Positions 13,173-37,989 of a stretch of 64,000 bases of DNA are shown in pieces (the stretch's first letter is position 1; each line of letters starts with the position of its first letter). The position numbers were made by a program, and so were the translations under genes. The DNA lies in NCBI GenBank assembly GCA_963774265.1, contig CAVZDU010000001.1, forward strand, positions 448,001-512,000. Reading direction: 5' to 3'. A model generated the notes under the pieces. The model saw only the letters and a program-made list of their open reading frames with translations, ran no database searches and had not been told where the DNA came from. This DNA comes from an uncultured Chloroflexia bacterium. Lineage in GTDB: Bacteria; Chloroflexota; Anaerolineae; CG2-30-64-16.

Positions 13173-13185
13173 ATGGGCTTAAACG

Positions 13186-14196: not shown

Positions 14197-14234
14197 TGCG
14201 CATTCTCTCCCCTGCTTCGTACAGGGCCCACACT

Positions 14235-16029: not shown

Positions 16030-16248
16030 GGCGGTCTCCGAGGTAGCAGAGGTGCACACAGGTGAATTTCTGGATACTTGGGCCGAGCACAACTGCCAGT
16101 GTCCTTGTCTTTTACCCGCGAGTTGGCGTATTGTCAAGTGCAATGCTTTGCTCGCACCAGTTCACCCGCGAAACCCACCGGCCCTTTGCTCGTATAGTTA
16201 CGTGAAAGCGAAACACAACATTCAGCCAGCCGGCAAGGGAGACATAGC

Positions 16249-16509
16249 ATGACTGAGCAGAAAACACGGACCGAAGAATTCCAGATGCAGGGCGAACAGA
16301 TCGTCGGCAAGATCAAGGAATTGGTGCGGCAGGGCAATATCCGCCACATCTCGATCAGGAACGATGAAGGAAAGACCCTGGTGGACATTCCACTGACTCT
16401 GGGCGTTGTAGGCGCGCTCTTCCTTCCGCAGTTGGCAGCGCTGGGAGCAATCGCAGCCCTGGTCACCAGCTGCACCATCGTCGTGGAGAAGACCGACGAG
16501 GAAGCCTAA
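16249..16509 (+). CDS. DUF4342-like small protein
   Basis: KIKELVRQGNIRHISI...LVDIPLTLGVVG...CTIVVEK; AAGGGAG SD. Confidence 0.8.
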   Translation: MTEQKTRTEEFQMQGEQIVGKIKELVRQGNIRHISIRNDEGKTLVDIPLTLGVVGALFLPQLAALGAIAALVTSCTIVVEKTDEEA

Positions 16510-16531
16510 CGTGAACTAGACCGGCCAGGGC

Positions 16532-16560
16532 TTGACCGTAAGGTTGCCCCGCCCTATAAT
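16532..16560 (+). promoter_or_regulatory. Sigma70 promoter of selD
   Basis: TTGACC (16532-16537), 17 bp spacer, TATAAT (16555-16560). Confidence 0.7.
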
Positions 16561-16598
16561 TCCTCCCGCTCGGAGATAGATTCCGGGCGGGAGGAATT

Positions 16599-17648
16599 AT
16601 GACGCGCGAAGAAATCGTAAAGCTAACGAGCCTCAGCGCCTGCGCGGGCTGAGCGTCCAAGCTGCCGCCTGAGCAGCTCGCGCAGGTCCTGCGCTCACTC
16701 GAGAACCTTTTCCCTGCCGATCAGCATCCCGAGCTCCTGATCGGCTTGGGCGCGCCCGATGATGCCGCCGTGTACCGCCTGAATGACGAACAGGCGCTCA
16801 TCCAGACGGTGGACTTCTTCACGCCCATCGTCGACACGCCTTACGAATACGGCGCCATCGCAGCGGCTAACGCGTTAAGTGACGTGTACGCGATGGGTGG
16901 CGAAGTGTTGTTCGCACTCAATATCGCGGCATTCCCGCCCAATCTACCTTCCTCGGTCCTGGCAGAAATCCTCCGCGGTGGCGCTGAGGTGGTTCGCTCA
17001 GTAGGGGCAGCCATCGCTGGAGGGCACACGATCCAGGACAAAGAGCCAAAGTATGGCTTGGCCGTGACCGGCATCGTGCACCCCGACCACATCATAACGA
17101 AGGGCGGAGCACGTCCTGGTGACGCACTCGTGCTCACTAAGCCCCTGGGGACCGGGGTTATCACGACCGCGGTCAAGCGCGATCAGGTTGATCCTCAGCA
17201 CCTGGCCGCTACCATTCAAAGCATGATGCGCCTGAATCGGATTGCATCACAGGCTTGCCAGAGAACCGGCGTGAAAGCTGCAACCGATATTACGGGCTTT
17301 GGGTTGCTGGGCCATGCATTGGAGATGAGTGATGCGTCAGAGGTCCGCTTCCGCGTCCGATTCGACGATCTGCCGTGGCTGCCGGGCGCGTTGAAATATG
17401 CCGAGCAATGGGTCTTCGCAGGCGGCGCGTTCAGCAATCAGGCTTTCTACAAGTCGCTTGTGACGTTCTCCCGCCCTCTGACCGATTGGCAGCAGGTGCT
17501 TCTGCACGACCCACAAACCTCCGGCGGGCTGTTAGCTGCCGTCCCTACGGCACAGCTTAGGGCATTCCAGGCCTACTGCGCAGAACGCGAGCAATCTGTT
17601 TGGGTCATCGGCGAGGTGATGGAAGGCGAGGGGATCGAAATCGTGTGA
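16599..17648 (+). CDS. selD: Selenide, water dikinase, selenocysteine-containing (UGA at 16650-16652)
   Basis: GGAGG SD and ATG 16599: MTREEIVKLTSLSACAG-U-ASKL, in frame with DDAAVY, QTVDFFTPIVD, NALSDVYAMGG, TDITGFGLLGH, DPQTSGGLL. Confidence 0.93.
16670..16697 (+). promoter_or_regulatory. Bacterial SECIS-like hairpin in selD
   Basis: GCGCAG-GTC-CTGCGC (16680-16694) just downstream of the in-frame UGA, G-containing loop. Confidence 0.7.
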
Positions 17649-17656
17649 CGCGAGAC

Positions 17657-18466
17657 TCAGCGTTCGATCAGCACCTCAGGCGCGATTTCGAACCCGAACC
17701 GCCGCTTGAAACGGCGCAACACCCGCAAAATGGCGCCGCCAAACAGCAAGATCAAAGCTGCATTTCCGAGAGCACGCGCCGCGTCCCACCATAACGAGGT
17801 CACCACATAGAAAACTGCATAATTGCGCACAGCCTCCCACGCGCTCATCCCCGTCTGGAAGGCGCCTCCTTCTGCTGTCGCGCCAACGCCCCCCTGCATG
17901 AACGGCCAGAACCAGATGTTCATAATTGCGCCGAAGACCAGGCCCACGATGCCCCCAAAGACTGCCAGCATGACGGATTCCCAGCGCCGGTGGCTCGGAA
18001 ACTGCGGCAGGAAGCCGGACAATAAACCCGTCCAGCCAGTAGCGAACATCTGATAGGGCAACCACGGTCCTACACCACCCCCAATAAAGGCAGACACCAG
18101 TAGCGATAAGGAGCCGAGAAGAAAGCCGAAAGTGGGGCCATACGCGTAACCTGCCAGGATGGGCAGCACGAAGATCGCATTGAAGCCGGCCGGGCCCGGC
18201 ACCGCACGCAACACCGCATTGACCGCGGTCAGGACGCCCAGCACGGCGACCAATTTGCTGGTCATCTGCCTGCCTGCCAGATCGGCAAAAACAGCAGACA
18301 GGCACAGTCCAAGCAACACCACAGTGAGCAACGGCGCGTCATTGCTGTGCGCAGCCATACCATCGGACGCCAACGAAGGCAGAAAGAAGGGATAGAGGAA
18401 CGCCCCCAGTCCGATCAGGCTGGCGATGATCATGATAGCTGCGGAAACGGCCTTCTGCGAACGCAC
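17657..18466 (-). CDS. ECF transporter S component (predicted cobalamin)
   Basis: Polytopic membrane protein, GYAYGPTFGFLLG, GGGVGPWLPYQM, WWDAARA; last gene of the cobalamin-riboswitch operon. Confidence 0.85.
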   Translation of the reverse strand: MRSQKAVSAAIMIIASLIGLGAFLYPFFLPSLASDGMAAHSNDAPLLTVVLLGLCLSAVFADLAGRQMTSKLVAVLGVLTAVNAVLRAVPGPAGFNAIFVLPILAGYAYGPTFGFLLGSLSLLVSAFIGGGVGPWLPYQMFATGWTGLLSGFLPQFPSHRRWESVMLAVFGGIVGLVFGAIMNIWFWPFMQGGVGATAEGGAFQTGMSAWEAVRNYAVFYVVTSLWWDAARALGNAALILLFGGAILRVLRRFKRRFGFEIAPEVLIER

Positions 18467-18474
18467 GCGCCCCC

Positions 18475-20146
18475 CTAAGCCTGTCCCAAAGCGGTCAGGA
18501 CATCCTCGACCACAAGATAGTGCGGATCGCGAAACAACTTATTGATCTGTGACGCAAAGACCTGCGAGTCGCTCATTACTTCACACGCGGGACCATCAAC
18601 CACGACCTGACCTTCGCCCATCAGCACCACACGGTCGGCGCACGCGGCCGCTAATTCGACATCATGCGTGGCCATGACGACGGTCCGGCCCTCGCGCTTC
18701 ATACCGAGCAGCAACTCCGCAAGGCTGCGCTTCTGCACGTAATCCAGTCCGCGCGTGGGCTCGTCAAGCAGAATGATCTGCGGTTCGGCGACCAGGATGG
18801 CAGCCAACGCCGCGCGCTGCTGCTCACCGCCGCTCAAGTCGCGTGGGTCACGGTCACCCAGCTCCGCCAGACCGAGGCGCGCCAGAAGGGCGACATCTCC
18901 CGCCGGATCTGGGGCCATACCATGGCTCTTGCGGGTGAACGCCAACTCCGCTGCAAGTGTCTCGCTGAACAAGAGCGACCCGGGGTATTGCGGAACGTAA
19001 CCGGCATGCCGGATGATCGCGTCCACATCCGCTCGTCGCGTGTCGAGACCCGCGACCGTTACCTGGCCCTCATCCGGTTTCAGGAGGCCGACCAACGTCT
19101 TCAGCAACGTGCTCTTCCCGGAGCCGTTGCGGCCCATGAGCGTAACAAACTCGCCCGGACGAATATCCAATGTGACGCCGCGAATCGCACGGTGACCGTG
19201 GTAAGCGTAATGAAGGTTGCGGGTTGAGAGGACAGGCTCAGCGGATGCCTCACCACCCGGAACCGCGGGGCCCGAGGCAACAGAGGAGTTCACCGCCAGT
19301 GAATGCCCCCCTGTTTTGCCTGAGACTCTCGCTGCGAGCTGAGGCCCAAGGCGACGAGCGAAGGGGCGGCCCTCCTTGATCGTCAAGGGGAGGGGATCCC
19401 CACCCAAGAGTTCGACCTAAATCCACTAGGGGCGGCACAAGAGGTAGCTGAGCCATGACCGTTCTCGGCTCATCCAACACGGGCGCAGCACCGAGCGCAG
19501 GCAAGTAAAGAATACGATCGGCATACTGCGCAACTCGTTCCAGGCGGTGCTCGCTCAGGATCACGGTGAGCCCCTGATCTTCGTTTAGTTGACGCAAGGC
19601 AAGGAGGACATCTTCAGCGGCCTGCGGGTCAAGCTGCGAGGTGGGCTCATCCAACACCAGGATTTCGGGTTGCAGCGCCAGAACCGCGGCAATGGCCACG
19701 CGCTGCTTCTCACCCCCCGACAGGGTGCTGATGCGCCTTTGCCTGATCTCCGCGATGCCCATCTGATCCAACACTTCCTCGATGCGCTTGCGCATGGTGG
19801 CGGGCGGTAGGGCGAAGTTCTCCATGGCAAAGGCTAGTTCGTCCTCGACAGTATCGACCACGAACTGGGCTTCAGGATCTTGAAAGACAAAACCGACGAG
19901 ATCGGCCATGCCACGAGGGGCCAGGTCAACCGGGTTCCTGCCGCCGACCTCGATCTGGCCGGCCCAGCGCCCACCATAAAAATGGGGCGCGAGACCATTC
20001 AGGCTTCGCAGAAACGTAGACTTGCCTGCGCCGGACGGACCGACCACCAGCACGAATTCGCCCTGCCGAATCGTGACGTTGAAATCGGCCAAGGCGGGCA
20101 TCGCCTGGTCGGGATAGGTGTAGGTGACGTGTGATAGGGTGATCAC
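18475..20146 (-). CDS. ECF transporter fused double ATPase (A-A'), frameshifted near 19400
   Basis: Two ABC domains: GPSGAGKST/LSGGEKQR/LDEPT and GRNGSGKST/LSGGEQQR/LDEPT; the frames join at LGW-DPLPLTIKEG, with one extra base in a G run. Confidence 0.88.
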
Positions 20147-21273
20147 GCGGGCACGCTGACCTCACTCTCATCGATAACCGGGCGTAGCAAGAGGCCCGGC
20201 AGGGCCAACAGCAGGAGCACCGCGCCGATGACCGGGTTGAAGGTTGGCCAGGGCGAGTAGGGCGCGTAGGGATAGTAGTGCAGCCACTCGGGTCGCAACA
20301 CCAGGATCACGCCCCAGGCGGTGGCCCCCAAAAGCCCGAGCACAGAGACCACCCGGTCCATCCGGCCCCAGGGCCAACGCCGGTACCTGGTGCGTTTCGA
20401 GCGTCGACTGACATCCCAGAAGCTCCACAGCATCAGTGCCGCTCCGCAGGCCAGTTGTAATCCTCCAACGATTCTCAAGTGGGGCAAGAATCCATTGACT
20501 GCCAGCCCAAGACCGACCAGCCCCAAACCGTCGAGCAGCGCGAGCTGATGAGCCAGCCGCTGTCGCGGCGTAGCCTGCAGCACCTGCCCACCGAACCCTC
20601 GCGCCTCCATGGACTCGGCGAGTTGCATCGCGCGCTCTAGCGCAGTGACGAGCAGGGGCAGGATGAGCGGCAACAGATCACGAATTCCGCGAAGTCTATG
20701 ACCGCGTACCTGCTGCGCCTCACGAATCGACTGCCAGGTGGCGACCATCTGTGGCACGAAGGCAACCGCAATGCCGGTCACCACGCCTGCCTGGTACATG
20801 AAGCCGGGAGTCATCCGCAACAAGCGCGCCTGATCTACCGCAACGTTGAACGTCGCGAAGATCAGCAGGAGTGCAACAAGCGCCAGCCCGCCGGTCAGAC
20901 CATACAGTAGCGCCTCCAGGGTGATCGCACCGCCGATGATCGGCCAGGAGCGCGGCAGGTAAAACAGCACGATGGTGCCGTGGTGCGACATAAGCATCGT
21001 GAAGGGTATCGTGAGCAGCCAAAGGAATGCGCCCAGCCGGACGAACGCACTCCAGCTACGAGCGGTCGGATTGCGCTGGCCCAGGGCGATGTAGGTGATG
21101 CCGACCGCTGTGAGAATCAGGCTAAGGTAGAGCGGATTGCGCGTGGAGAGCGCCGGCAGCGCTGCCGCGACCAGCCAGGCCGTCCAGGCCACGGGATGAA
21201 AAGTATCTTCAGTGGTCAAGGTTCTTGTGCGGCCTATTCGCGACCTCGGCCGCGCACCTCGTGAGATAGCCAC
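20143..21273 (-). CDS. ECF transporter T component (CbiQ/EcfT); start uncertain
   Basis: FHPVAW, TM helices, EAQQVRG and LAESMEARGFG coupling motifs. Confidence 0.88.
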   Translation of the reverse strand: MAISRGARPRSRIGRTRTLTTEDTFHPVAWTAWLVAAALPALSTRNPLYLSLILTAVGITYIALGQRNPTARSWSAFVRLGAFLWLLTIPFTMLMSHHGTIVLFYLPRSWPIIGGAITLEALLYGLTGGLALVALLLIFATFNVAVDQARLLRMTPGFMYQAGVVTGIAVAFVPQMVATWQSIREAQQVRGHRLRGIRDLLPLILPLLVTALERAMQLAESMEARGFGGQVLQATPRQRLAHQLALLDGLGLVGLGLAVNGFLPHLRIVGGLQLACGAALMLWSFWDVSRRSKRTRYRRWPWGRMDRVVSVLGLLGATAWGVILVLRPEWLHYYPYAPYSPWPTFNPVIGAVLLLLALPGLLLRPVIDESEVSVPA

Positions 21274-22127
21274 CGGTCATCGGGCGCCAATTTCCGGACG
21301 TGCGCCACCCCATGCCCGTTCTTGCGGTGCAGCACATACCACCCGATGACTAGCAGGATTGTCAGCGCCAGCACATACGCCGCGTATCCAGGAAGAAGGC
21401 TCGCGCTGAAGGACCGGCTCTCCGCAAGTTGCCGGGCCGCAGCCGAGACCGTCGACGGGCCCACAGAATTCACGGAGGCGGCCTCACCGCCAGTCGGCGC
21501 CGCAGACGCGCTCCCCAGAAAAATGGGCGTCGCAGTGGCTGCACCGGTGGCTGCCGGAGAAGGCGTTGAAGTCCCACCCGCGCCCGTTGCCGCCTGGCAG
21601 ATCTGTTCAAAGGGTATGACGGGAGGCTCTACGCCCTGCTGGAAGTTGCCCTGCCCCCAGGACCAGCCCTCCAATGCGCCCTGGGTCACCCTGTAACTCG
21701 TGGCGCCGATAGATGAGTATGACCACTCACCACCCAGCCGATGGTAGTAAGCCCAATACTTACATTCCGGGAATGGGCACCTGCAGAAACAATCATCGGA
21801 AGCACAGCCCAGGCCACTGATGCCACAGACCGTGCCTTCCGATGAGATGACCGGTGCAAGGCCCGAACGCTCCAGCAGTTCATCGCCGCGGATTTCTGCT
21901 TCGGAGAAGGCAACGCAGCGAGTCTGCACACTGCCGTCTTCGTATCGAACGACCAGCGCGGCCAAATTCGGTCCTTTTCCAACCACCTGGCCCTGTCTCT
22001 CCGGCTGAGGCGCTGTGGAGGCCTGCACGTCAGGCAACGGCGCGCGGCCAAGAATCCAGGCGGCTGCGGTGAGCAGTCCGATAAGGAAAAGGCGCCGAGC
22101 CAGGCGAACGGATCTCGTTCTAACCAT
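21234..22127 (-). CDS. Exported, C-terminally anchored protein with transcobalamin-beta/DUF4430-like domain
   Basis: Signal peptide, VCGISGLGC...KYWAYYH...WSYSSIGATSY...EGWSW, low-complexity Ala/Thr linker, C-terminal TM helix plus basic tail. Confidence 0.65.
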   Translation of the reverse strand: MVRTRSVRLARRLFLIGLLTAAAWILGRAPLPDVQASTAPQPERQGQVVGKGPNLAALVVRYEDGSVQTRCVAFSEAEIRGDELLERSGLAPVISSEGTVCGISGLGCASDDCFCRCPFPECKYWAYYHRLGGEWSYSSIGATSYRVTQGALEGWSWGQGNFQQGVEPPVIPFEQICQAATGAGGTSTPSPAATGAATATPIFLGSASAAPTGGEAASVNSVGPSTVSAAARQLAESRSFSASLLPGYAAYVLALTILLVIGWYVLHRKNGHGVAHVRKLAPDDRWLSHEVRGRGRE

Positions 22128-22139
22128 CTCTCGATCTCT

Positions 22140-22718
22140 TTACCGGGCGGACCGTCTGCGCATTCGCAGCAGGTACCACACCAGTGCAACAAGGCCGACG
22201 GCCAGAAACACCAGCGCCACGATCTGCACGGTCGACAACCCTGGCGCCTGCTTCGCCAGCATCTGGTCGAAAGCGTAGACGGGCGGTTGAACCGTGGCAT
22301 TGAAATTCGCGTCAAACCCGCTCCAGGCGAACCCTTCCACGGCCTTATCTGCGGGCACATATATCCCAACGCCTTCCTGGGCGCCGGCCCAGGCCGTCCC
22401 GTTTAGGTGATAGTAGGCCCAGTAGGTTTTCTCATCACAGAAACAGTTGTCTACCGGACAACCGGTCGTGTTGATGTTGCACAGAGCGGGTCCAAACGAA
22501 CTCTCAGCAGTCACCACATTGAGTTTTGCGGCCTTGAGCGCGTCGAGCGCGGTGGCGGTTGCGGGCACAGTCACGACCTCAGTGTGCGTTGCACCATCCG
22601 GGAAAGTGACGACGATGCCGACCTGCTTCGTTCCTGCGGTTTGTGCGAAGGACACGCCCGCGGTCAAGGCGAGCATGACGACGATCAAAAGAATGACGAA
22701 CGGAGTGCGATAAGACAC
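22140..22718 (-). CDS. Paralogous exported, anchored protein with transcobalamin-beta/DUF4430-like domain
   Basis: Signal peptide, TALDALKAA, LCNINTTGC...YWAYYH...EGFAW, C-terminal TM helix plus RRRSAR. Confidence 0.65.
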   Translation of the reverse strand: MSYRTPFVILLIVVMLALTAGVSFAQTAGTKQVGIVVTFPDGATHTEVVTVPATATALDALKAAKLNVVTAESSFGPALCNINTTGCPVDNCFCDEKTYWAYYHLNGTAWAGAQEGVGIYVPADKAVEGFAWSGFDANFNATVQPPVYAFDQMLAKQAPGLSTVQIVALVFLAVGLVALVWYLLRMRRRSAR

Positions 22719-22766
22719 TAGATTTCCTCCTCAAATCAGACGGCGGACCCCTGTGGAGCAGCCTGT

Positions 22767-23771
22767 TTAGCGGGCCAGGATCATTGGCAAATAGGGCAAC
22801 TTGCAGGGCGACGGCTCTTGTATTAGCAGGGTCAGTGCAGACAAGGCATCGGTGGTCGCCACGATTCTACTCTCCTCCAAGCCGGCTTCTTTCACGTACA
22901 CGAACGCGCCGGACGGCTCCTGAAACGACAGCAGCGTGTCAAGCGCGCCCTTGCTGCCCGCCTGGATGCCTGGGGTCTGCACATCAGAACCAGCAGCAAT
23001 GAGGCCTGCGATGGAAAGAGCCGTCGAGTTGGCATTGGCGGGCCCTGCGATGTATCCGGTATTCCAACCGCCGCCTGGCAGTTGAGCATTCTTCAACCAG
23101 TCGGCCGCCCTGGCATATGTGGAGAGTGCAGACGTTTTGGCCAGTCCGCCCATGACCATCAAGACCCGGCCGGTGGTATCCACGTCGCTCTGCTCGCCAT
23201 CGAAACTCCAGAACCAACCACCATCCGAAAGTTGAGAGTTGATCAGCGTATCGTAGGCAGCCTGGGGCACCTTCACGCCACTGCGCAGCAGTCCTTCGAC
23301 GGCAAGGGTGTGGCGGAACAGCCAGTTCGGGTGATAGCGGCCGGTTGTCGCGTCGTAGAAACCTTCGATAGTCTCCACCAAATCAATGCCGCCGAAGTCG
23401 CGCGGATTCGCACCGGCTGCGGCCACGGCGCGCATTACCTTGCCCGCCTGACCAGGATCCGAGGTCGCGTATTTCGGGAGGCTGAGCGCCTGCAGTGCGT
23501 CGAGAGCGCTTTTGCCGGATGCGGCTGTCCAACGAGGGCTGTCCACATCCTCCCCCAGCAGCGCGAGCACGTACACAACATCAGAGGTGACCGCGGCGCT
23601 GCTCTCTTGCGTCACACCGAATCCGCCGTCCGATTTCTGCTGGCCACGCAACCACGTCACCGCACGACACGCCGCGCCGGAAACAGCGTCCTCTGCGTGC
23701 GCCGGCGCGGCCAAGCCGGTCGTCAGTAGAATCACCAATGCCAGGAGGCGGGCCACTCTGCGCATTTTCAT
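22767..23771 (-). CDS. Secreted prenyltransferase/squalene-oxidase repeat (alpha6/alpha6 barrel) protein
   Basis: Signal peptide (AHA|E); repeats QQKSDGGF, SQLSDGGW, AQLPGGGW, FQEPSGAF; SDVDTT and NANSTA; ends YLPMILAR. Confidence 0.8.
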   Translation of the reverse strand: MKMRRVARLLALVILLTTGLAAPAHAEDAVSGAACRAVTWLRGQQKSDGGFGVTQESSAAVTSDVVYVLALLGEDVDSPRWTAASGKSALDALQALSLPKYATSDPGQAGKVMRAVAAAGANPRDFGGIDLVETIEGFYDATTGRYHPNWLFRHTLAVEGLLRSGVKVPQAAYDTLINSQLSDGGWFWSFDGEQSDVDTTGRVLMVMGGLAKTSALSTYARAADWLKNAQLPGGGWNTGYIAGPANANSTALSIAGLIAAGSDVQTPGIQAGSKGALDTLLSFQEPSGAFVYVKEAGLEESRIVATTDALSALTLLIQEPSPCKLPYLPMILAR

Positions 23772-23820
23772 CGTTGATGAACCCCAAAAAGAAAGCACCC
23801 TTGACAACGGGGTGCTTCAC

Positions 23821-23856
23821 AAAAGAAAAACCCCTTGCCCAACTGTGACAAGGGGA
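23821..23856 (-). terminator. Terminator/expression platform of cobalamin riboswitch
   Basis: Minus strand CCCCTTGTC-ACAGTT-GGGCAAGGGG followed by TTTTTCTTTT, between the aptamer and the first CDS. Confidence 0.75.
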
Positions 23857-23942
23857 GCATCCGGGACCTCATTCAACAAAGGAATAAGATCGACCGGTTC
23901 CCACTCCCTTTGCCTCGAAGGTCGTTGAGAACCCGACGGAGA

Positions 23943-24045
23943 AGGGTTTTCTGGCTTGCCCATGCGATTGGCAGGGCCTACAGTTGCGGGACAGCGCCGG
24001 CCTTGCACCGGCTTTCCCCAAATCTCCACCGAATATTATTCAGTT
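23943..24045 (-). ncRNA. Cobalamin riboswitch
   Basis: Minus strand GGTG...GGGAAAGCCGGTGCAAGGCCGGCGCTGTCCCGCAACTGT...AAGCCAGAAAACC (B12 box); upstream promoter TTGACT(24085-24080)-17 bp-TACGCT. Confidence 0.93.
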
Positions 24046-24276
24046 CTTCGACGCCTAGCGTAACACAGGGAGGGGGAGGAGTCAAATGACTTGCGTCATA
24101 ATCGACCTTCTTACACCAACACCGTAAGCTTTGTCTGTGACCAAAGCCACTCTGCATACTGTAAGCCAGACGCCTAGCTCAAACAGAAGAAACCTGCTAT
24201 AATTATCGGGAAGGTTGTGGGCTGTCGCTCTGAGTTAGTTCTGCGCTGAGGACTGCCCATCTGGAGGTTGTCAATC

Positions 24277-32107: not shown

Positions 32108-32463
32108 CACTCGAAGTCCCTACGCCTTTCTCTCATCCGGTTGAAGCGGAATTTGCGCATATCCTCGACTTCTATGGCATTCCGTGGGACTACGAGCCCC
32201 GGACATTCGTCCTCGAGCGCCACGGCGATGGCCTCGTGCGGGAGGCTTTCTCGCCAGATTTCTATCTGCCCGACCAGGACTTGTACGTTGAATTGACGAC
32301 GATGCAGCCAAACCAGATCCGGCACAAGAACCGGAAGCTCAAACGGCTGCGCGAGCTGTACCCGGAAATCAACGTCAAGCTTTTCAAGCGAGGCGACATA
32401 CGCAACCTGCTCCTCAAGTTCGGGGTGGCCGATATTCCTGACATGATGGCGAATGAATTATGA
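32104..32463 (+). CDS. Small conserved protein with PD-(D/E)xK-like nuclease motif
   Basis: ATGA overlap with the upstream gene; EAEFAHILDFYGIPWDYEP...FSPDFYLP...YVELTT...KNRK. Confidence 0.6.
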   Translation: MTLEVPTPFSHPVEAEFAHILDFYGIPWDYEPRTFVLERHGDGLVREAFSPDFYLPDQDLYVELTTMQPNQIRHKNRKLKRLRELYPEINVKLFKRGDIRNLLLKFGVADIPDMMANEL

Positions 32464-33026
32464 TAATATCTCCCACTAACGACCTGACGCGCGGCTTGGG
32501 ACGCGTGGTTTATAGCGAAGCCGAGATTCGCCAACGCATCGCAAAGCTCGGGGCACAGATCAGCAGCGACTATACTGGGTTGAATCCGCTCGTTGTAGGC
32601 GTATTAAAAGGCGTGATGTTCTTCATGAGCGACCTGCTGCGAACACTAAGCGTACCCGCTCGGGTCGACTTCATGGCCATCTCGCGCTATCATCCCGGCA
32701 AGGGAGCCAAAGGCCCGGTGCGACTGATCAAAGACCTAGAAGAGCCAGTAGAGGATCAACACGTACTGTTTGTCGAGGATGTGATCGACACGGGGTTAAC
32801 CCTCAGCTACCTGCTACGCAACCTGAGCGCGCGCCATCCCGCCAGCCTGGAAGTCTGTACACTGTTCGATAAGCCGCAGCACCGTCTGGCGAAGGTCCCT
32901 GTGAAGTACAAGGGCTTCGACTTGCCGGACAGGTTCGTGGTCGGCTATGGTTTGGACTATAAAGAGGCCTATCGGCACCTCCCTTATGTGGCGGAGCTAA
33001 CTCCGGAAACCTTGGGGATAAAGTAG
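32460..33026 (+). CDS. hpt: Hypoxanthine phosphoribosyltransferase
   Basis: VGVLKG, VEDVIDTGLTL (PRPP loop), LFDKP, FVVGYGLDY. Confidence 0.93.
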   Translation: MIISPTNDLTRGLGRVVYSEAEIRQRIAKLGAQISSDYTGLNPLVVGVLKGVMFFMSDLLRTLSVPARVDFMAISRYHPGKGAKGPVRLIKDLEEPVEDQHVLFVEDVIDTGLTLSYLLRNLSARHPASLEVCTLFDKPQHRLAKVPVKYKGFDLPDRFVVGYGLDYKEAYRHLPYVAELTPETLGIK

Positions 33027-33030: not shown

Positions 33031-34941
33031 ATGAAACGTTGGTCGATGTTCGCGGTCGCACTCGTCCTGCTCTTTACGCTTTCGGCAGCACCGGCCCTCG
33101 CCCCGGACAGCACCTTGCCGGGCGTGGAGATGTCGAGTGCCGTACAGTTGGCGCCTGAAGGCGAGATCGATCAAACCGGCTACATCAAGGGATTCTACGT
33201 CTCATACCCCGCGATGGGCAATGCAGACTTCCTGGCGCGCACCTATGAGTTACTCCAAGAGACTGAGCTGAACGCGGTTGTGCTGGATTTCAAGGGAGAT
33301 GACGGCTTGTTGACGTTCCCGACACAGGTCCCCCTCGCATTAGAGATCGGAGCAGGACGGAGTCCGATGGTAAGAAACCCGTCGGAATTCCTGGGGCGGT
33401 TCAAAGAGCGCAACGTCTACCTCATCGCGCGAATCGTCACATTCAAAGATAATCAACTCGCCGAGGCCTACCCCGGCTGGGCCATTACTGACAGGACCAC
33501 TGGCGGCATTTGGCACGATCAGAACGGCATGGGGTGGATCGACCCGAATCGAACTGAGGCGCGGGACTACATCGTGGCGTTAGCTTTGGAGGCAGCGGCT
33601 CTGGGTTTTGACGAGATACAATTCGACTACGTCCGGTTCCCCACCGATGGGAATGTGGACAGAGCGAGTTACTCGCGACCGAACACCTACGAGAACCGCG
33701 TGGCAGCGATTACGGGTGTTCTGCAGCAGGCCAGCAACGCTTTACGTCCATTGAACGTCAAGGTCGGCGCGGATGTCTTCGGTTACATACCCTGGTCATC
33801 CGACGATTTGGGCATCGGGCAACATCTGGAGACCATCGCACCGTATATCGACGTGCTTGCTCCGATGGTCTACCCTTCGACTTTCGCTGCCGGCTTACCG
33901 GGGGAAGACCCCAAGTATCGCACTGCCGTCGCATATCCATATGGGATCGTCCGCAAAACCACCGAGCGATCGTTGCGCCGGGCAAAAGAAATAAACCCCC
34001 GGATCGAAATTCGGCCCTGGCTGCAGGATTTCCGAGACTACACATTTGACTATCGCACGTTCACACCCGCCGAAATCAGGCTCCAAATCGACGGAGCGCG
34101 CGATGCCGGCGCTCGGGGCTGGCTCTTGTGGGATTCGGCAGTACGCTACACCAAGAAGGCTCTGGTCTCGGCGCAACCAGCATTCCTTCCCAACCGCTTG
34201 GGCCGGGTGCCGGTGCTCGTCTACGAAGAGGTGGATCCCGCCGTGCTGCGCAGCGATCTCTCATGGCTACTGGAGGAAGGGTTCTATCCGACCACAGTGG
34301 CCGATCTGGCGCAGGGGCACTTGCACGGCGTGCCGGCAGGCAAAAAAGCAGTGGTGCTGACCTTCGACGGCTCACCGATCAGCCAGCTCCGACTGCTGGA
34401 TGGTGGCCAGATTGACCCTGAGTGCGTTGTTGGGGTGTTGTTGAACTTTGCAGCGGCGCACCCGGCGGATTTTCCAGCACGCGGCACGTTTTTTATCCGG
34501 CTGGGCGCGGACGGCGACAATGCAAGCATCTTCGGCACGGCCAACCTGGCCGGTTTCAAGCTGCAAACACTGGCGACCTGGGGGCTGGAGATCGGCCTTC
34601 AGCTTACCATAGATGAGTCGCTGGGAGAGATGAGTGCCGATGACATTCAGCAGCGGCTCGGGCAGGCTAAATCGCAGCTGGGCGTCCTGCTGCCGGGGTA
34701 CGATCCGGTTTCTTTGGCGCTCACCAAGAGCGAGCCGCCGCAGGCACCCGAATTGCTCGCTGCAGGGACGAATGGCGACGTGCAGTATGGATTCACCTCA
34801 GCCGTACTGCCAGATGGCGGCCTCGCCCAATCTCCATTCAGCCCCAAATTCGCCCCCTACCGCATCTCCCGGCTGCCGGCGGGTGCATCGTGGCGACAAG
34901 CCCTCGCATCTTCAGAAATCTTCGTGTCGGCTGGCGAGTAA
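33031..34941 (+). CDS. Secreted putative glycoside hydrolase (DUF4015-like) fused to polysaccharide-deacetylase-like domain
   Basis: Signal peptide; NAVVLDFKGDDG, IARIVTFKD, GFDEIQFDYVRFP, PMVYPS, RPWLQDF; C-terminal VPVLVY...VVLTFDGS. Confidence 0.78.
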   Translation: MKRWSMFAVALVLLFTLSAAPALAPDSTLPGVEMSSAVQLAPEGEIDQTGYIKGFYVSYPAMGNADFLARTYELLQETELNAVVLDFKGDDGLLTFPTQVPLALEIGAGRSPMVRNPSEFLGRFKERNVYLIARIVTFKDNQLAEAYPGWAITDRTTGGIWHDQNGMGWIDPNRTEARDYIVALALEAAALGFDEIQFDYVRFPTDGNVDRASYSRPNTYENRVAAITGVLQQASNALRPLNVKVGADVFGYIPWSSDDLGIGQHLETIAPYIDVLAPMVYPSTFAAGLPGEDPKYRTAVAYPYGIVRKTTERSLRRAKEINPRIEIRPWLQDFRDYTFDYRTFTPAEIRLQIDGARDAGARGWLLWDSAVRYTKKALVSAQPAFLPNRLGRVPVLVYEEVDPAVLRSDLSWLLEEGFYPTTVADLAQGHLHGVPAGKKAVVLTFDGSPISQLRLLDGGQIDPECVVGVLLNFAAAHPADFPARGTFFIRLGADGDNASIFGTANLAGFKLQTLATWGLEIGLQLTIDESLGEMSADDIQQRLGQAKSQLGVLLPGYDPVSLALTKSEPPQAPELLAAGTNGDVQYGFTSAVLPDGGLAQSPFSPKFAPYRISRLPAGASWRQALASSEIFVSAGE

Positions 34942-34945
34942 ACAC

Positions 34946-34977
34946 AAAAAATGGGAGCGCTACTTCTAGCGCTCCCA
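34946..34977 (-). terminator. Intrinsic terminator (11-bp perfect stem)
   Basis: Minus strand TGGGAGCGCTA-GAAG-TAGCGCTCCCA followed by TTTTTT. Confidence 0.85.
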
Positions 34978-35220
34978 CCCTTTAACAGAGGTGCCCCAAG
35001 CAACCTTCTGGCTTATTTCATTCCTGGCTCGCTGTTCACTCGTTTTTTTGTTGCCGTACTCTTGAACTTTTGCGCTTATCAGACGCTATTTCTCATTCGG
35101 CTTACGAGTTTCCAATTACTTGGTTTTCTTCGAGCCTGAACCCGCCATTAGATTTCTCGGGGCTCCCTCACCAACAGATTGACAACTCCCAGTTGATTGT
35201 TTGTTGCTTTTCTATTGGCA
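34946..35220 (-). ncRNA. Putative structured non-coding RNA (~275 nt), family unknown
   Basis: Bounded by a consensus promoter and a strong terminator; the minus-strand ATG ORFs I traced are only ~10 codons or less; several hairpins plus a long-range closing stem. Confidence 0.6.
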
Positions 35221-35225
35221 CTTAT

Positions 35226-35254
35226 AGTATAGCAGGGAAGTAAGGCTCTGTCAA
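35226..35254 (-). promoter_or_regulatory. Near-consensus sigma70 promoter
   Basis: TTGACA (35254-35249), 17 bp spacer, TATACT (35231-35226), with TG extension. Confidence 0.8.
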
Positions 35255-35337
35255 TAGGTATTAAGACAATATGTAGACGCACGCGAAAATATTAAGCTTT
35301 CCTGACAAAACAAAGCGTTTCTCAAAGAACGTGCCGC

Positions 35338-35610
35338 TTTAGTGTTATTCTATATTTAATGTCTATTTGATAATAGTAGTAGTAGGCCCTGGGGATATGT
35401 GGGCAACATGCGTCGTAGCCTGGAGCTACGCGGACAGTTGCGTTACGGCCTAGATGGGCCACTACATGTGGGGTGACCGTATAATTCGTAGGCGTCGAGG
35501 AATTGTGGACGACCGAGGTGCCCAGGAGGCTGCGGCAAGCCTTTCTGATTGCTGGGGATAAGTGCCTGGCTTATCAGGAGCGTTATCCCCTGGCAGCTGT
35601 GGATAGGGTG
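35338..35610. other. Putative chromosomal replication origin (AT-rich DUE, DnaA-trios, DnaA-box cluster)
   Basis: Minus strand TTGCCCACA-TATCCCCA-GGGCC-TACTACTACTATTATC then an AT-rich stretch; further boxes TGTGGACGA 35504, TGGGGATAA 35553, TTATCCCCT 35583, TGTGGATAG 35598. Confidence 0.78.
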
Positions 35611-35731
35611 CATTTTTGGGTATGTGGCAAGGCTCAGTGTATACTCCTTTTCACGATCGCGACGCCGCCCTATGGGGCGGCGTTTTGCCTGTCTGGGGTT
35701 TGAAGTTGAAAGTTTGGAGGCCTAGGATTCA

Positions 35732-36535
35732 TTGAGTACCGTTCGTGTCATGACCTATAACATCCATCGCTGGGCTGGCCGCGACAAACGATTGGATTTG
35801 GAGAGACTGGCAAGTGTTATCGCTGAATCTGGGGCTGATATCGTCGGATTCAATGAGGTCTTGCACCCCGTCACCACTCCCCATCACACATATGCTCCAT
35901 TGGCTGAACTCGCCGAGCGACTCGGCATGTGGTACGCGTTTGGCGCCAGCGGCTGGATCGATTACGGTCCGGGCTGGCAGGGACCGGTCGGTAATGCGCT
36001 GCTCAGCCGGCAGCCGTTGACGGACGTATCAAACACCTTGTTGCCGCAGCTGCCAGGCACCAAGCGAAGGTCGCTGCTTTCTGCCACCCTGGCAAGCGGT
36101 GGTCCGCTGGCCGGGCTGACGGGGTTTGTGACGCATCTCGACCACGCCTTTGAGGGAACGCGGTTGCTTCAGATCCGCGGGGTGTTGCGGCGCATGGAGC
36201 AACGATCTCAAGGGCAGCCTCACGTTCTGATGGGCGATTTTAACACACCCGGGTTCCTGGGCAGTTGGACGCGCCAGCTCATCCCGCCGGTGCTGCAGGC
36301 GATGCACAGCGCGGGGTATCAAGATGCTTTTCGGGCAGTTGGCGAGGGCCACGGTAGGACGTTCCCCTCGCATTCGCCTCTTGTGCGCATCGACTTTCAG
36401 TTTTTCCCGGAGCGCTGGGCGCAAGGCCTGAGGAAAGCAGAGGCGCTCAATTGGGACCAGATCCCGGAGGCGTCGGATCATAGGCCGCTGCTGGTAGAAT
36501 GGCTCTGGCCTGAACGGTCTCCCGCAATGGCGTAA
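35732..36535 (+). CDS. Endonuclease/exonuclease/phosphatase (EEP) family protein
   Basis: VMTYNIH, FNEV, GNALLS, THLD, MGDFN, RIDF, ASDHRP. Confidence 0.9.
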   Translation: MSTVRVMTYNIHRWAGRDKRLDLERLASVIAESGADIVGFNEVLHPVTTPHHTYAPLAELAERLGMWYAFGASGWIDYGPGWQGPVGNALLSRQPLTDVSNTLLPQLPGTKRRSLLSATLASGGPLAGLTGFVTHLDHAFEGTRLLQIRGVLRRMEQRSQGQPHVLMGDFNTPGFLGSWTRQLIPPVLQAMHSAGYQDAFRAVGEGHGRTFPSHSPLVRIDFQFFPERWAQGLRKAEALNWDQIPEASDHRPLLVEWLWPERSPAMA

Positions 36536-36544
36536 CCGAGGTCC

Positions 36545-37354
36545 ATGAAAGTCCTGACTTACAATGTCCATGGCTGGCAGGCGCCCGAAGGCGGGTCAAA
36601 TCTTGATCTCGTGACCGAGGTCATCGCTGCCAGCGCCGCGGACGTGGTCGGGCTAAATGAAGTCTTTCATCCGGCGGGAGCGCCGGATGAATGCCCTCTG
36701 AGGCTTCTTGCAGCGCGACTTGGCATGGCCTACGCGTTCGGCGCAACTCAACCGGCCGACCCACATCCCGATCATCCCCCATACGGAAACGCACTCCTCA
36801 GTCGATGGCCGATTATGGCGCACGCCGCACACCATCTGTCACCCGCAATTAGCTATGGCAAGCGCGGGTTGTTGGAGGCGCGTCTGCTATTGCCCTCAGA
36901 TGATACGCTCACCCTGTATGTGACCCACCTGGATCACCGTTTGGAGGAGGTGCGGGTAGCACAATGGGCATCAGTCAACACGTGGCTGTTGCGGGATCGC
37001 CTCCGGCCGCATCTGCTGCTCGGTGATTTCAACGCGTTGGCGCAGACCGATTATACGACGCCCGATGCTGTGGAAGGGCTGGCAGAGTATCAGGCTCAAC
37101 ACGGTTGGCCCACGCCGGCGTTCGATCTGGTGGACCAGGTGCTCAAGGCGGGGTACATTGACGCGTTCGCGGCTGCCGGCAATCCGCCGATGAGTGGAGC
37201 GACGTATCCTGCGTCTGCGCCCGAGCGACGGATCGACTACATCTTCCTTCCTTCATCGTGTGTAGGCGCACTACGGGCATGCGCCCCCTTCGTTGTGGAT
37301 CTCCGTCCGGCGGCCTCTGACCACTTGGCGGTCTTGGCCGAGCTCAGTATCTGA
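36545..37354 (+). CDS. EEP family protein (paralog)
   Basis: VLTYNVH, LNEV, YGNALLS, THLD, LGDFN, RIDY, ASDH. Confidence 0.9.
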   Translation: MKVLTYNVHGWQAPEGGSNLDLVTEVIAASAADVVGLNEVFHPAGAPDECPLRLLAARLGMAYAFGATQPADPHPDHPPYGNALLSRWPIMAHAAHHLSPAISYGKRGLLEARLLLPSDDTLTLYVTHLDHRLEEVRVAQWASVNTWLLRDRLRPHLLLGDFNALAQTDYTTPDAVEGLAEYQAQHGWPTPAFDLVDQVLKAGYIDAFAAAGNPPMSGATYPASAPERRIDYIFLPSSCVGALRACAPFVVDLRPAASDHLAVLAELSI

Positions 37355-37380: not shown

Positions 37381-37989
37381 ATGACGGGGTCAGACATGCC
37401 TGATCGCAGCGATGTGGCTTGGTGGGACGGGCGTTATCTCAGCGGCGACACCCCGTGGGACACCGGCATCGTACCCCCGGAAGTTATCACGCTCATTGAG
37501 TCATCCGTCGTGTCGCGAGGATGGGTGCTAGACCTGGGTTGTGGCAGCGGCGTAACGAGCTGCTATCTGGCCGCGCATGGCTTTCGGGTAGTTGGCGTTG
37601 ATCTGGCGCAGGTCGCATTGCGGCGCGGATTAACGAGGGCCTCCACGCGCGGATTGCCTTGCTTCTTTGTCCGGGCAAGCGCTGCGCACCTGAGCCTTGT
37701 GCGCCTCCAGGCTTCCTTGGCGATAGATATCGGATGTTTTCATAATCTTACCCCCTCCGGGCGCACGTCCTATATCCGATCGCTCGCTGAGCATCTTCAG
37801 GCGGGCGCTCACTATCTGCTGTACACCTTCTTCTCATCGGAGGCAACCTCAACTTCTATGATCGGTCCTGCAGATATCGCCGCCTTCGCTCCGCAGTTCA
37901 CGCTGCTAAAGGCTACCCATGGTCAGGATCGCGAACGGCCATCCGCTTGGTTCCTAATGCGTCGTGCTTGTCGTGATGCCACGACGTAA
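37381..37989 (+). CDS. Class I SAM-dependent methyltransferase
   Basis: TPWDTG, VLDLGCGSG, VVGVD, DIGCFH. Confidence 0.88.
   Translation: MTGSDMPDRSDVAWWDGRYLSGDTPWDTGIVPPEVITLIESSVVSRGWVLDLGCGSGVTSCYLAAHGFRVVGVDLAQVALRRGLTRASTRGLPCFFVRASAAHLSLVRLQASLAIDIGCFHNLTPSGRTSYIRSLAEHLQAGAHYLLYTFFSSEATSTSMIGPADIAAFAPQFTLLKATHGQDRERPSAWFLMRRACRDATT

What the first reader, a model, noticed from the sequence alone, without database searches (positions are those of the whole stretch)
34946..35254. Unannotated ~275-nt multi-hairpin RNA gene firing away from the putative origin
Seen (minus strand): a consensus promoter, an A-rich transcript with no credible ORF, and an 11-bp terminator. Foldable by eye: a 5' stem GCCAATAGA/TCTGTTGGT enclosing CAACT-GGG-AGTTG; a long-range stem GAGG-GA-GCCCCGAG/CTTGGGGC-A-CCTC closing about six small hairpins (CGGGTT/GGCTCG, CCAA-GTAA-TTGG with a GNRA loop, CTCGT/ATGAG, GCG/CGC, GTTCA/TGAAC, AGCGAGCC/GGTTGCT) separated by A-rich linkers; TAAGC recurs three times. 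Many pairs are G-U on this strand only. It lacks the hallmarks of tRNA, tmRNA, RNase P and SRP RNA and the rod shape of 6S. Inference: a novel protein-sponge or scaffold RNA. Its promoter lies ~90 bp from the AT-rich unwinding region, so divergent transcription could also aid origin opening.
Basis: partly seen in the sequence, partly recalled or inferred. Interest (0 to 1): 0.75.

Follow-up and report, generated by a model that had tools for sequence, protein, structure and literature searches.

The report
New abundant structured RNA in Anaerolineae
A stand-alone gene makes a highly folded, strongly expressed RNA of about 200-275 bases that is kept across a whole class of Chloroflexota bacteria and matches no described RNA family; its job is unknown, but its invariant closing stem most likely serves as a docking site for a protein.

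Summary
The finding is real. On the minus strand, a near-consensus sigma-70 promoter (35254-35226) and an intrinsic terminator (34984-34945) bracket a ~275-nt RNA. It matches no Rfam 15 family. The genome's 6S, SRP, tmRNA and RNase P RNAs lie elsewhere.

A covariance model built here finds the RNA in 36 of 37 genomes of its order. In that alignment, 28 of 37 modelled base pairs show compensatory changes. The consensus fold is a ~30-bp closing rod, a three-way junction with a small GNRA hairpin, and a ~20-bp apical arm.

More distant copies keep the rod but have a variable interior (about 130-400 nt). They lie convergent to hpt in other Anaerolineae families, and probably in Dehalococcoidia.

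RNA-library contigs from four studies cover only the RNA gene, not its flanks.

Function is untested. My best guess (about 0.45) is a trans-acting protein-binding RNA with the rod as the docking platform. A second 6S/Ms1-like RNA polymerase binder is the main rival; canonical 6S coexists in 55 of 61 class genomes.

The origin-opening idea is unsupported. The 10-codon ORF is not conserved. I found no published description of this family.

The parts
35226..35254 (-). sigma-70 promoter: -35 TTGACA (35254-35249), 17-nt spacer, TG-extended -10 TATACT (35231-35226). The predicted start is about 35222-35219.
   Evidence: 11 of 12 matches, the only such site in 33500-37000. Promoters scoring 10-11 of 12 sit at the same place in 12 of 36 order-level loci. 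Near-consensus promoters also precede the distant homologues.
35170..35219 (-). 5' hairpin: outer stem GCCAAUAGA/UCUGUUGGU, inner stem GCAAC/GUUGU.
   Evidence: MFE fold. The outer and inner stems are kept with changes within the genus. The hairpin is variable or absent in other genera.
35131..35169 (-). 5' strand of the closing rod: P1 35169-35166, bulge, P2 35163-35156, P3 35154-35150, internal loop, P4 35147-35144, P4b 35141-35138, P5 35136-35131.
   Evidence: CCCCGAGA is identical in all 36 order-level rows.
35112..35123 (-). P6 hairpin CCAA-GUAA-UUGG (GNRA tetraloop) at the three-way junction.
   Evidence: All 4 pairs show compensatory changes. The loop is GNRA in most rows.
35038..35109 (-). 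Apical arm: P7 35109-35104/35043-35038, P8 35101-35098/35056-35053, P10 35095-35092/35066-35063, P9 hairpin 35086-35072.
   Evidence: P7 and P9 covary. The P8 strands differ between genera but stay complementary in the single-sequence folds.
34988..35031 (-). 3' strand of the closing rod: P5' 35031-35026, P4b' 35023-35020, P4' 35012-35009, P3' 35006-35002, P2' 35000-34993, P1' 34991-34988. It holds the invariant GGUUGCUUGGGG.
34945..34984 (-). Intrinsic terminator: 18-pair hairpin plus U-run.
   Evidence: Most order-level loci have a hairpin plus T-run here. No RNA-library contig laid covers it.
32460..33026 (+). hpt (hypoxanthine phosphoribosyltransferase). It is the only neighbour conserved across the class, always convergent to the RNA. 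In this genome a DUF4015 gene (33031-34941) lies between them.
   Evidence: TIGR01203, 192 bits against a cut-off of 150. Synteny.

Best explanation
Window 35222..34946 (minus strand) is an independent gene for an abundant, trans-acting, highly structured non-coding RNA. It is a member of an RNA family not recorded in Rfam. The family is near-universal in the window's order of Anaerolineae, recognisable in many other Anaerolineae families, and probably present in Dehalococcoidia.

Shown:
- The RNA has its own promoter and terminator.
- It appears in RNA libraries.
- Its fold is conserved and covaries: a ~30-bp closing rod formed by the 5' and 3' parts, a three-way junction with a small GNRA hairpin, and a ~20-bp apical arm.

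Inferred:
- The rod is nearly invariant in sequence, including its unpaired purines: an A bulge, a 1x1 mismatch, and a 4x4 purine loop (GAAC/AGAC here, GGAA/GGAA in other families).
- I take this rod to be the working part, a docking platform for a conserved protein.
- The apical domain is free to vary, so I take it to be a lineage-specific add-on.
- The RNA would then act like other protein-binding housekeeping RNAs (6S, Y RNA, Ms1), by holding, titrating or delivering its partner, rather than by base-pairing with mRNAs.
For: Gene signals: promoter and terminator; folding z = -8.3 and -5.4.

Not a known RNA:
- No Rfam gathering hit, and only chance hits at E <= 10 on the terminator.
- No Rfam hit on 11 + 6 homologous loci apart from tRNAs and one sub-threshold chance match on a tRNA.
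- The own genome has 6S, SRP, tmRNA and RNase P RNAs elsewhere.

Conservation:
- Model R1 hits 36 of 37 genomes of the order, in 17 of 17 genera; the one miss is 63% complete.
- It is single-copy in the own genome.

Structure:
- 96.6% of cells are paired, against 32-52% when partners are slid.
- 28 of 37 pairs have changes on both sides, and 0 of 500 shuffles reach this.
- 30 of 36 single-sequence MFE folds give the same rod-plus-two-arm shape.

The rod is the constant part:
- GGUUGCUUGGGG and CCCCGAGA are identical in all 36 rows.
- Distant homologues keep the rod, with compensatory changes, around interiors of about 130-400 nt.
- Natural short paralogues keep only the rod: 83 nt with its own promoter, and 52 nt.

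Trans action:
- In genus g6 the full-length gene lies away from hpt and the Exo_endo_phos gene, and a 52-nt remnant sits in the old slot.

Expression:
- Contigs of 4 RNA libraries from 4 studies cover 34984-35210 only.
- The flanks 34400-34983 and 35211-35800 are bare, except for one depth-2.8 contig.
- Near-identical contigs reach word depth 243 and 108.
Against: - No partner protein was identified, and no protein gene co-occurs next to the RNA other than hpt, a metabolic enzyme.
- Hfq, CsrA and TROVE/Ro were not found in the own genome, which is 84% complete. The usual sRNA-binding proteins are therefore not candidates.
- Sequence invariance of a rod could also reflect an RNA-RNA or RNA-polymerase contact.
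- The alignment used for the pair counts was fitted to the model's structure, which inflates 'percent paired'.
- Expression rests on assembled contigs, not raw reads. Ends, strand and level are therefore not measured, and the runs were found through this very sequence.
- All genomes of the order are metagenome bins.
Confidence: 0.45

Rival explanations
1. It is a second, non-canonical 6S- or Ms1-like RNA that binds RNA polymerase. The closing rod would mimic downstream DNA, the junction an open bubble, and the apical arm upstream DNA.
For: - The dimensions fit 6S: a core of about 190 nt, a ~30-bp closing rod, an open junction of 7+3+7 unpaired nt plus a small hairpin, and a ~20-bp arm.
- It has a consensus housekeeping promoter and high depth in RNA libraries.
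- Three complete Dehalococcoidia genomes have no RF00013 match. Each carries an RNA gene at the syntenic place, and the one I folded (about 190-200 nt) forms an unbranched rod.
- A 2026 paper on D. mccartyi CBDB1 reports a 188-nt sRNA without an Rfam match. It is the third most abundant RNA, 6S-like, and has putative product RNAs (PMC12961961, passages read).
Against: - Canonical 6S coexists with it: 78.8 bits in the own genome, and 55 of 61 class genomes, at other loci.
- There is no 6S hit at E <= 10 on this RNA.
- The strongest conservation is in the distal rod, not around the junction.
- Interior length ranges from about 130 to 400 nt, and 83-nt and 52-nt paralogues exist. That fits poorly with a fixed promoter-mimic geometry.
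- Whether the CBDB1 sRNA1 is the hpt-adjacent RNA cannot be told. Its coordinates are in supplements I could not open.
Confidence: 0.2
2. It is a base-pairing regulatory sRNA that uses its A-rich single-stranded linkers as seeds against mRNAs.
For: It is a stand-alone gene with a promoter and a terminator, has A-rich unpaired stretches, and acts in trans.
Against: - The unpaired linkers are the least conserved parts, and the paired rod is the most conserved.
- No Hfq was found.
- No complementarity longer than 16 nt exists elsewhere in the genome.
- The size and the 60-odd conserved pairs are atypical for seed-type sRNAs.
Confidence: 0.08
3. It is an RNA-only machine, such as a ribozyme or a self-assembling ornate RNA, that needs no protein partner.
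For: It has a complex conserved fold with a GNRA tetraloop, purine-rich internal loops and many invariant nucleotides. This is as in other orphan structured RNAs.
Against: The whole interior, including the GNRA hairpin, is dispensable in distant homologues and in the mini paralogues. What remains is a simple irregular duplex.
Confidence: 0.07
4. It acts in cis on its neighbourhood, in one of two ways. Either convergent transcription or a shared terminator controls the hpt operon, or, transcription helps open a nearby replication origin.
For: - The convergent pairing with hpt is kept from this order to other Anaerolineae families and to Dehalococcoidia-like genomes.
- Two DnaA-box-like sites (1 mismatch each) lie at 35553-35561 and 35598-35606.
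- The GC-skew minimum of the contig falls inside the window.
Against: - A 1.9-kb DUF4015 gene separates hpt and the RNA here and in many genera.
- In genus g6 the RNA gene has moved away.
- A cis role does not need 60 conserved base pairs.
- DnaA-box-like sites number 8 against 6.4 expected, and 31 of 100 shuffles reach 8.
- dnaA lies at C1:126867-127346, 355 kb away.
- The skew minimum is at about 460-472 kb, which is window 12-24 kb and not 35.3 kb.
Confidence: 0.05

Closest known systems
6S RNA (Rfam RF00013)
   Same: It is an abundant stand-alone RNA of about 190 nt (core) made from a consensus sigma-70 promoter. It has two irregular helices on either side of an open central region. It is near-universal and mostly single-copy in its lineage.
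   Different: There is no match to the 6S model at E <= 10. Canonical 6S is present elsewhere in the same genome and in 55 of 61 class genomes. The centre is a three-way junction with a hairpin. Sequence conservation sits in the distal closing rod. Interior length is very variable.
Ms1 RNA of mycobacteria (PMC4191392; only the search listing and the start of the abstract were seen)
   Same: It is a lineage-restricted, highly expressed RNA that is not 6S, and it is reported to bind a core housekeeping enzyme (the RNA polymerase core).
   Different: No sequence or family match was found here, the phylum is different, and binding to polymerase is untested.
Bacterial Y RNA / YrlA with Ro (Rsr)
   Same: A conserved stem formed by the 5' and 3' ends is the protein-binding module, and the interior is variable (this description of Y RNA is recalled, not tested here).
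   Different: No TROVE/Ro gene was found in the own genome. There is no Rfam Y-RNA match and no tRNA-like module.
raiA motif RNA (PMC10861870; passages and section 5 read)
   Same: It is a large, highly structured, abundant, trans-acting orphan RNA with a fixed genomic neighbourhood and a lineage-wide distribution.
   Different: There is no Rfam match. The neighbour is Hpt (TIGR01203), not ComFC or RaiA. The paper itself says Anaerolineae have few if any raiA RNAs. The architecture is different, and no pseudoknots are evident.
Unnamed sRNA1-3 of Dehalococcoides mccartyi CBDB1 (PMC12961961; passages read)
   Same: They are abundant monocistronic RNAs of a Chloroflexota species with sigma-70 promoters and no Rfam match. 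sRNA1 is 188 nt, close to the 190-200-nt RNA I see convergent to hpt in Dehalococcoidia-like genomes.
   Different: The authors read sRNA1 as 6S. They give no family, structure or distribution beyond the species.

Membership tests
6S RNA (RF00013) | Scores against the Rfam covariance model at or above the gathering score | tested here: not met
   No 6S hit at E <= 10 in window 34700-35500 and none at the gathering score in the window.
6S RNA (RF00013) | Is the genome's 6S locus, with no other canonical 6S present | tested here: not met
   Canonical 6S lies at G000:C2:209990-210187, 78.8 bits. It is present in 55 of 61 class genomes at other loci.
6S RNA (RF00013) | Long rod with a large central bubble that mimics an open promoter | tested here: inconclusive
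   The consensus is a ~30-bp rod, a three-way junction (about 17 unpaired nt plus a 12-nt hairpin) and a ~20-bp arm. This is 6S-sized but branched.
6S RNA (RF00013) | Binds the sigma-70 holoenzyme and templates product RNAs | not testable with these tools
   Needs co-immunoprecipitation and small-RNA sequencing.
SRP RNA / tmRNA / RNase P RNA | Family match at this locus, and no other copy in the genome | tested here: not met
   SRP is at C2:340926-341026. tmRNA is at C2:32802-33212. A partial RNase P match is at C10:210418-210520. ARAGORN finds nothing in the window.
raiA motif RNA | Rfam match and a comFC/raiA neighbourhood | tested here: not met
   No Rfam hit. The PRT-domain neighbour is Hpt by TIGR01203, 192 bits against a cut-off of 150.
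Y RNA / YrlA | Ro (TROVE) protein encoded in the genome, usually adjacent | tested here: not met
   PF05731 was not found in the own genome, which is 84% complete. No Rfam match.
CsrB/RsmZ-type sponge | Many GGA motifs in hairpin loops, and a CsrA protein present | tested here: not met
   Only 5 GGA in 277 nt. PF02599 was not found.
Hfq-dependent sRNA | Hfq present in the genome | tested here: not met
   PF17209 was not found in the own genome. Absence is not proven at 84% completeness.
Riboswitch / cis-regulatory leader | A regulated gene downstream on the same strand | tested here: not met
   The RNA ends in a terminator facing the 3' end of a convergent gene. Upstream neighbours are unrelated across families.
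New family defined here (model R1) | Closing rod P1-P4 with the RCCCCGAGAA / GGUUGCUUGGGG strands, P5, the P6 hairpin and the P7-P9 arm | tested here: met
   163 bits, full length 1-197. The window's sequence was among the 29 used to build the model, so this match is by construction. Independent support comes from the 36 of 37 genomes of the order.

The most novel reading that the evidence does not exclude
This is the founding example of a housekeeping ribonucleoprotein RNA of Chloroflexota, present in Anaerolineae and Dehalococcoidia. Its invariant purine-looped closing rod binds a core cellular machine. That machine is either a so far unrecognised RNA-binding protein, or RNA polymerase as a second regulator unrelated to 6S that works beside canonical 6S. 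In the second case it would be the identity of the 188-nt, rRNA-level '6S-like' sRNA seen in Dehalococcoides mccartyi.
Probability: 0.3. Interest if true: 0.85.

Novelty: categorically new. Interest (0 to 1): 0.72.

Why it matters
Widespread, large, structured bacterial RNAs with no assigned function are few (OLE, raiA, ROOL, GOLLD; recalled). Each one has opened, or may open, new biochemistry.

This RNA is near-universal in one order and recognisable across a class that dominates anaerobic digesters, sediments and wastewater sludge (that ecological role is recalled). RNA libraries from four studies hold contigs of it at high word depth, yet it is annotated nowhere.

The comparative data already mark the part to work on: the rod with its conserved non-Watson-Crick loops. 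They also supply natural minimal versions of 83 and 52 nt. Partner identification by pull-down and structure work are therefore directly feasible.

If it turns out to be the hpt-linked RNA of Dehalococcoides, it can be studied in a cultured, biotechnologically important organism.

For annotation, the model gives a new RNA gene for Anaerolineae genomes: 36 of the 37 genomes of its order searched here carry it. It also explains a long 'empty' intergenic stretch.

Tried and rejected
- **Known housekeeping RNAs.** Rejected. Rfam gives no match, and 6S, SRP, tmRNA and RNase P lie elsewhere.
- **raiA homologue, suggested by a phosphoribosyltransferase neighbour.** Rejected. The neighbour is Hpt, not ComFC.
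- **Y RNA, CsrB-like sponge or Hfq sponge.** Rejected for lack of TROVE, CsrA and Hfq, with the caveat that the genome is 84% complete.
- **Small ORF.** Rejected, because its start codon is not conserved.
- **rRNA mimic or long antisense target.** blastn-short against the own genome found nothing above 16 nt.
- **Phage or mobile origin.** 0 pattern matches in viral contigs.
- **Functional clue from upstream neighbours.** None; they are unrelated across families. A Cytidylate_kin2 gene lies near hpt in several families, and also next to one paralogue in G001. I could not turn this into a test.
- **DNA-level BLAST.** It found only 23 of 61 relatives. The covariance model was needed.
- **The 'order' search.** It repeated the 'family' search because the order has one family. 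One search was wasted.
- **R1 on the class sample.** 13 of 151 genomes at E <= 0.01, of which 4 belong to the order. The model is too narrow for other families.
- **A broader second model.** It could not be built.
- **R1 on 28 hpt loci of other classes.** No hit at E < 0.05. The Dehalococcoidia-like examples rest on synteny, a short motif and reading by eye.
- **Strict two-motif census.** 30 of 401 class genomes against 2 of 401 for the reversed-pattern control. This is a lower bound, because many variants seen by eye do not fit the pattern.
- **mafft-qinsi.** Not installed.
- **Uncovered parts in the RNA libraries.** The terminator hairpin 34946-34983 and the first ~10 nt after the predicted start are not covered by any contig laid. 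With contigs this does not show processing.
- **Small word shares.** The shares of 0.06-0.08 say nothing about habitat.
- **Literature.** Six full-text searches found no description of this RNA. The main text of PMC11109978 holds none of Chloroflex*, Anaerolin* or hpt.
Full report
**The observation**

On the minus strand of window 34945-35254 the sequence carries a promoter and a terminator.
- The promoter is TTGACA, a 17-nt spacer, and a TG-extended TATACT at 35254..35226. It scores 11 of 12 and is the only such site in 33500-37000.
- The terminator is an 18-pair hairpin followed by a T-run at 34984..34945.

The ~277-nt transcript between them folds far better than shuffled controls.
- Whole RNA: z = -8.3, 0 of 200 shuffles as good.
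- 193-nt core without the terminator: z = -5.4, 0 of 200.
- It is 63% purine, with 97 A.

The gene downstream on the other strand is a convergent DUF4015 glycosyl-hydrolase-like ORF (33031-34941). Upstream and divergent lie two Exo_endo_phos genes. The RNA therefore leads no gene.

The 10-codon ORF has its ATG only in the window's own sequence among 29 aligned homologues.

**Not a known RNA**

- Rfam 15 at gathering scores finds only a cobalamin riboswitch elsewhere in the window.
- At E <= 10 on 34700-35500, only chance hits on the terminator hairpin appear.
- ARAGORN finds no tRNA or tmRNA in the window.
- The same genome holds the usual RNAs elsewhere:
  - canonical 6S at C2:209990-210187, 78.8 bits;
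  - small SRP RNA at C2:340926-341026;
  - tmRNA at C2:32802-33212;
  - a partial RNase P RNA match at C10:210418-210520.
- Homologous loci from other genomes likewise give no Rfam hit, except tRNAs and one sub-threshold chance match lying on a tRNA gene.

**Conservation**

A DNA search found the stretch in 23 of 61 relatives. All were in the window's own family: 22 of 36, against 0 of 24 genomes from other families.

An exact scan of 185,579 species genomes used a 25-letter pattern taken from the 3' strand.
- It gave 29 places.
- 27 of them also carry the 5' motif 151-177 nt upstream.
- One is cut by the start of its locus, and one is a chance hit.
- All true hits are titled Anaerolineae, Anaerolineales, Chloroflexia or Chloroflexota bins.

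I then built a covariance model, R1, with 197 positions and 37 pairs, from 29 sequences.
- It finds one copy in the own genome.
- It finds the RNA in 36 of 37 genomes of the family, which is also the whole order, and in 17 of 17 genera. The single miss is a 63%-complete bin.

**Structure**

On the model-fitted alignment of 45 distinct sequences:
- 96.6% of cells are standard pairs, against 31.7-51.9% when the 3' partners are slid by 1-3 columns;
- 28 of 37 pairs show changes on both sides;
- 0 of 500 column shuffles reach any of the observed measures.

The alignment was fitted to the structure, which flatters the first figure. The double changes are also visible in a plain MAFFT alignment, where 12 of 28 RNAalifold pairs show them.

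Independent MFE folds of the 36 order-level cores give the same abstract shape in 30 of 36. Its parts are:
- a closing rod: P1 (5 bp), an A bulge, P2 (8 bp), a 1x1 mismatch, P3 (4-5 bp), a 4x4 loop, P4, P4b and P5;
- a three-way junction;
- a small P6 hairpin, mostly with a GNRA loop;
- an apical arm, P7-P8-P10-P9.

The other small hairpins it drew are replaced by the long-range P5, P7 and P3. Its inner 5' hairpin is replaced by GCAAC/GUUGU.

**What is constant and what is free**

- In all 36 order-level rows the strands CCCCGAGA and GGUUGCUUGGGG are identical.
- The junction linkers and the arm vary.

R1 finds weak matches in other families of the class.
- 13 of 151 genomes match at E <= 0.01, of which 4 belong to the order.
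- Inspection shows the same closing rod, with compensatory changes such as GCUCCGAG/CUUGGAGC.
- The rod closes interiors of very different size.
- Each gene sits behind its own near-consensus promoter.

All these genes lie convergent to, and just 3' of, hpt. TIGR01203 scores 192 bits against a cut-off of 150 for the window's copy. I used that synteny as a guide.
- I fetched 28 hpt loci from other Anaerolineae families.
- R1 without filters gives 5 hits at E < 0.05, every one in the convergent slot next to hpt.
- 10 of 28 loci have a promoter scoring at least 10 of 12 on that strand.
- 10 of 28 show the rod: a script found 6, and I saw 4 more by eye in the printed sequence.
- The interiors run from about 130 to 400 nt.

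A strict two-motif pattern hits 30 of 401 class genomes, against 2 of 401 for the reversed-pattern control. This is a lower bound.

In 28 hpt loci from other classes of the phylum, R1 finds nothing at E < 0.05. However, three small Dehalococcoidia-like genomes carry an RNA gene with a recognisably similar rod in the same convergent slot. One of them folds as an unbranched rod of about 190 nt (z = -3.4). I rate that homology as probable, not shown.

**Paralogues and relocation**

- Genome G001 has three extra copies within 15 kb. One is an 83-nt version that is essentially the rod with a cap. It has its own TTGACA promoter and a compensatory GCCUCGAG/CUUGAGGC change.
- G007 has one extra copy.
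- In G012 the ancestral slot reads methyltransferase, Exo_endo_phos, [RNA], hpt, kinase-like gene. It holds only a 52-nt remnant (P1+P2). The full-length gene lies on another contig without those neighbours.
- Upstream neighbours in other families are unrelated.

Together this says that the RNA works in trans and that the rod is the indispensable module.

**Expression**

The index of public runs returned eight runs holding small shares of a 1.4-kb query. Five are on record as RNA. I laid four RNA libraries from four studies on 34400-35800.
- Contigs cover 34984-35210 only.
- Both flanks are bare, except for one depth-2.8 contig at 35750-35785.
- Near-identical contigs have word depths of 243 (195 nt, 2 differences) and 108 (161 nt, 3 differences). 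Others, from relatives, reach thousands.
- The flanks act as the silent control for the near-identical contigs, so contaminating DNA does not explain the cover.

These are contigs, not reads. Ends, strand and level are not measured, and the runs were found through this sequence.

**Mechanism**

The comparative pattern points to recognition of the rod by a macromolecular partner.
- The rod is invariant, including its unpaired purines: GAAC/AGAC here, GGAA/GGAA in other families.
- The interior is free to vary.
- Rod-only paralogues exist.
- The RNA acts in trans, is made from a housekeeping promoter, and is abundant.

I therefore commit to a protein-binding, scaffold or decoy type RNA, at about 0.45.

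The usual suspects are not there: no Hfq, CsrA or TROVE/Ro in this 84%-complete genome.

The main rival is a second 6S- or Ms1-like RNA polymerase binder.
- For it:
  - the dimensions fit 6S;
  - the Dehalococcoidia genomes that carry the syntenic RNA lack any RF00013 hit;
  - a 2026 paper reports a 188-nt, Rfam-less, rRNA-level, 6S-like sRNA in D. mccartyi (PMC12961961, passages).
- Against it:
  - canonical 6S coexists in 55 of 61 Anaerolineae;
  - conservation is in the wrong place for a 6S-like RNA;
  - interior length is not constrained.
- Whether that published sRNA is this RNA cannot be told without the paper's supplement.

**The origin idea**

- DnaA-box-like sites with at most 1 mismatch number 8 in the window, against 6.4 expected. 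31 of 100 shuffles reach 8. Two of the sites lie 300-380 bp upstream of the promoter.
- dnaA is 355 kb away on the same contig.
- The cumulative GC-skew minimum of the 1.5-Mb contig is broad and lies at about 460-472 kb, which is window 12-24 kb. The RNA gene is at 483 kb.
- An origin somewhere in the window is possible. An origin at 35.3-35.7 kb that is helped by this promoter is not supported. Relocation of the RNA gene in genus g6 argues against a position-dependent role.

**Novelty**

- No Rfam 15 family matches.
- Six full-text searches and a term search in the 50-genome discovery paper found no description.
- The raiA paper even lists Anaerolineae as lacking raiA RNAs.
- The nearest thing in print may be an unnamed sRNA of one Dehalococcoides strain.

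I therefore file this as a new RNA class of unknown function. It is real and widespread, and it can be attacked experimentally through its rod.

Noticed in passing
window 23924-24064 (-): Cobalamin riboswitch aptamer (RF00174), 50 bits against a gathering score of 31.5. It is the only Rfam hit in the window.
   Followed up: no
window about 12000-24000 (contig C1 about 460-472 kb); also 35553-35561 and 35598-35606: The cumulative GC-skew minimum of the 1.5-Mb contig falls inside the window, about 11-23 kb left of the RNA gene. Two 1-mismatch DnaA-box-like sites lie 45 nt apart in the 480-bp AT-richer spacer upstream of the RNA promoter. dnaA itself is 355 kb away.
   Followed up: partly
window 35732-36535 (+) and 36545-37354 (+), then 37381-37989 (+): Two tandem paralogous Exo_endo_phos genes, followed by a TPMT-like methyltransferase. 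They are syntenic with the RNA gene throughout the order.
   Followed up: partly
L100 (G001:C25) 2742-2918, 15482-15660, 17478-17560; L101 (G007:C7) 2709-2879; L102 (G012:C6) 2721-2772: Extra, diverged copies of the RNA. They include natural 83-nt and 52-nt rod-only versions. One copy lies next to a second Cytidylate_kin2-like gene, and a Cytidylate_kin2 gene also sits upstream of hpt at the main locus.
   Followed up: partly
G000:C10:210418-210520: The own genome's RNase P RNA is seen only as a partial match (model positions 111-207, 59 bits, below the 100-bit cut-off), although E = 3e-17. The RNase P RNA of this lineage may fit the bacterial type-A model poorly.
   Followed up: no
L106 (G073:C171), the ~300 nt beyond the 3' end of hpt: In place of the RNA gene there is a tandem array of units of about 30-40 nt, each containing a short GC-rich palindrome (printed). 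Its nature was not examined.
   Followed up: no
L157, L159 (G213, G202) and L153 (G190): Three complete Dehalococcoidia-like genomes of about 1.5 Mb have no RF00013 6S match at E <= 1. Each carries an RNA gene of about 120-200 nt with a closing rod, convergent to hpt. In two of them (L157, L159) it lies just downstream of a tRNA gene.
   Followed up: partly
G000:C10:370563-370931: A second, shorter hpt-like match (143-aa open frame, 49% identity) lies in the own genome. Many class genomes have two hpt paralogues.
   Followed up: no
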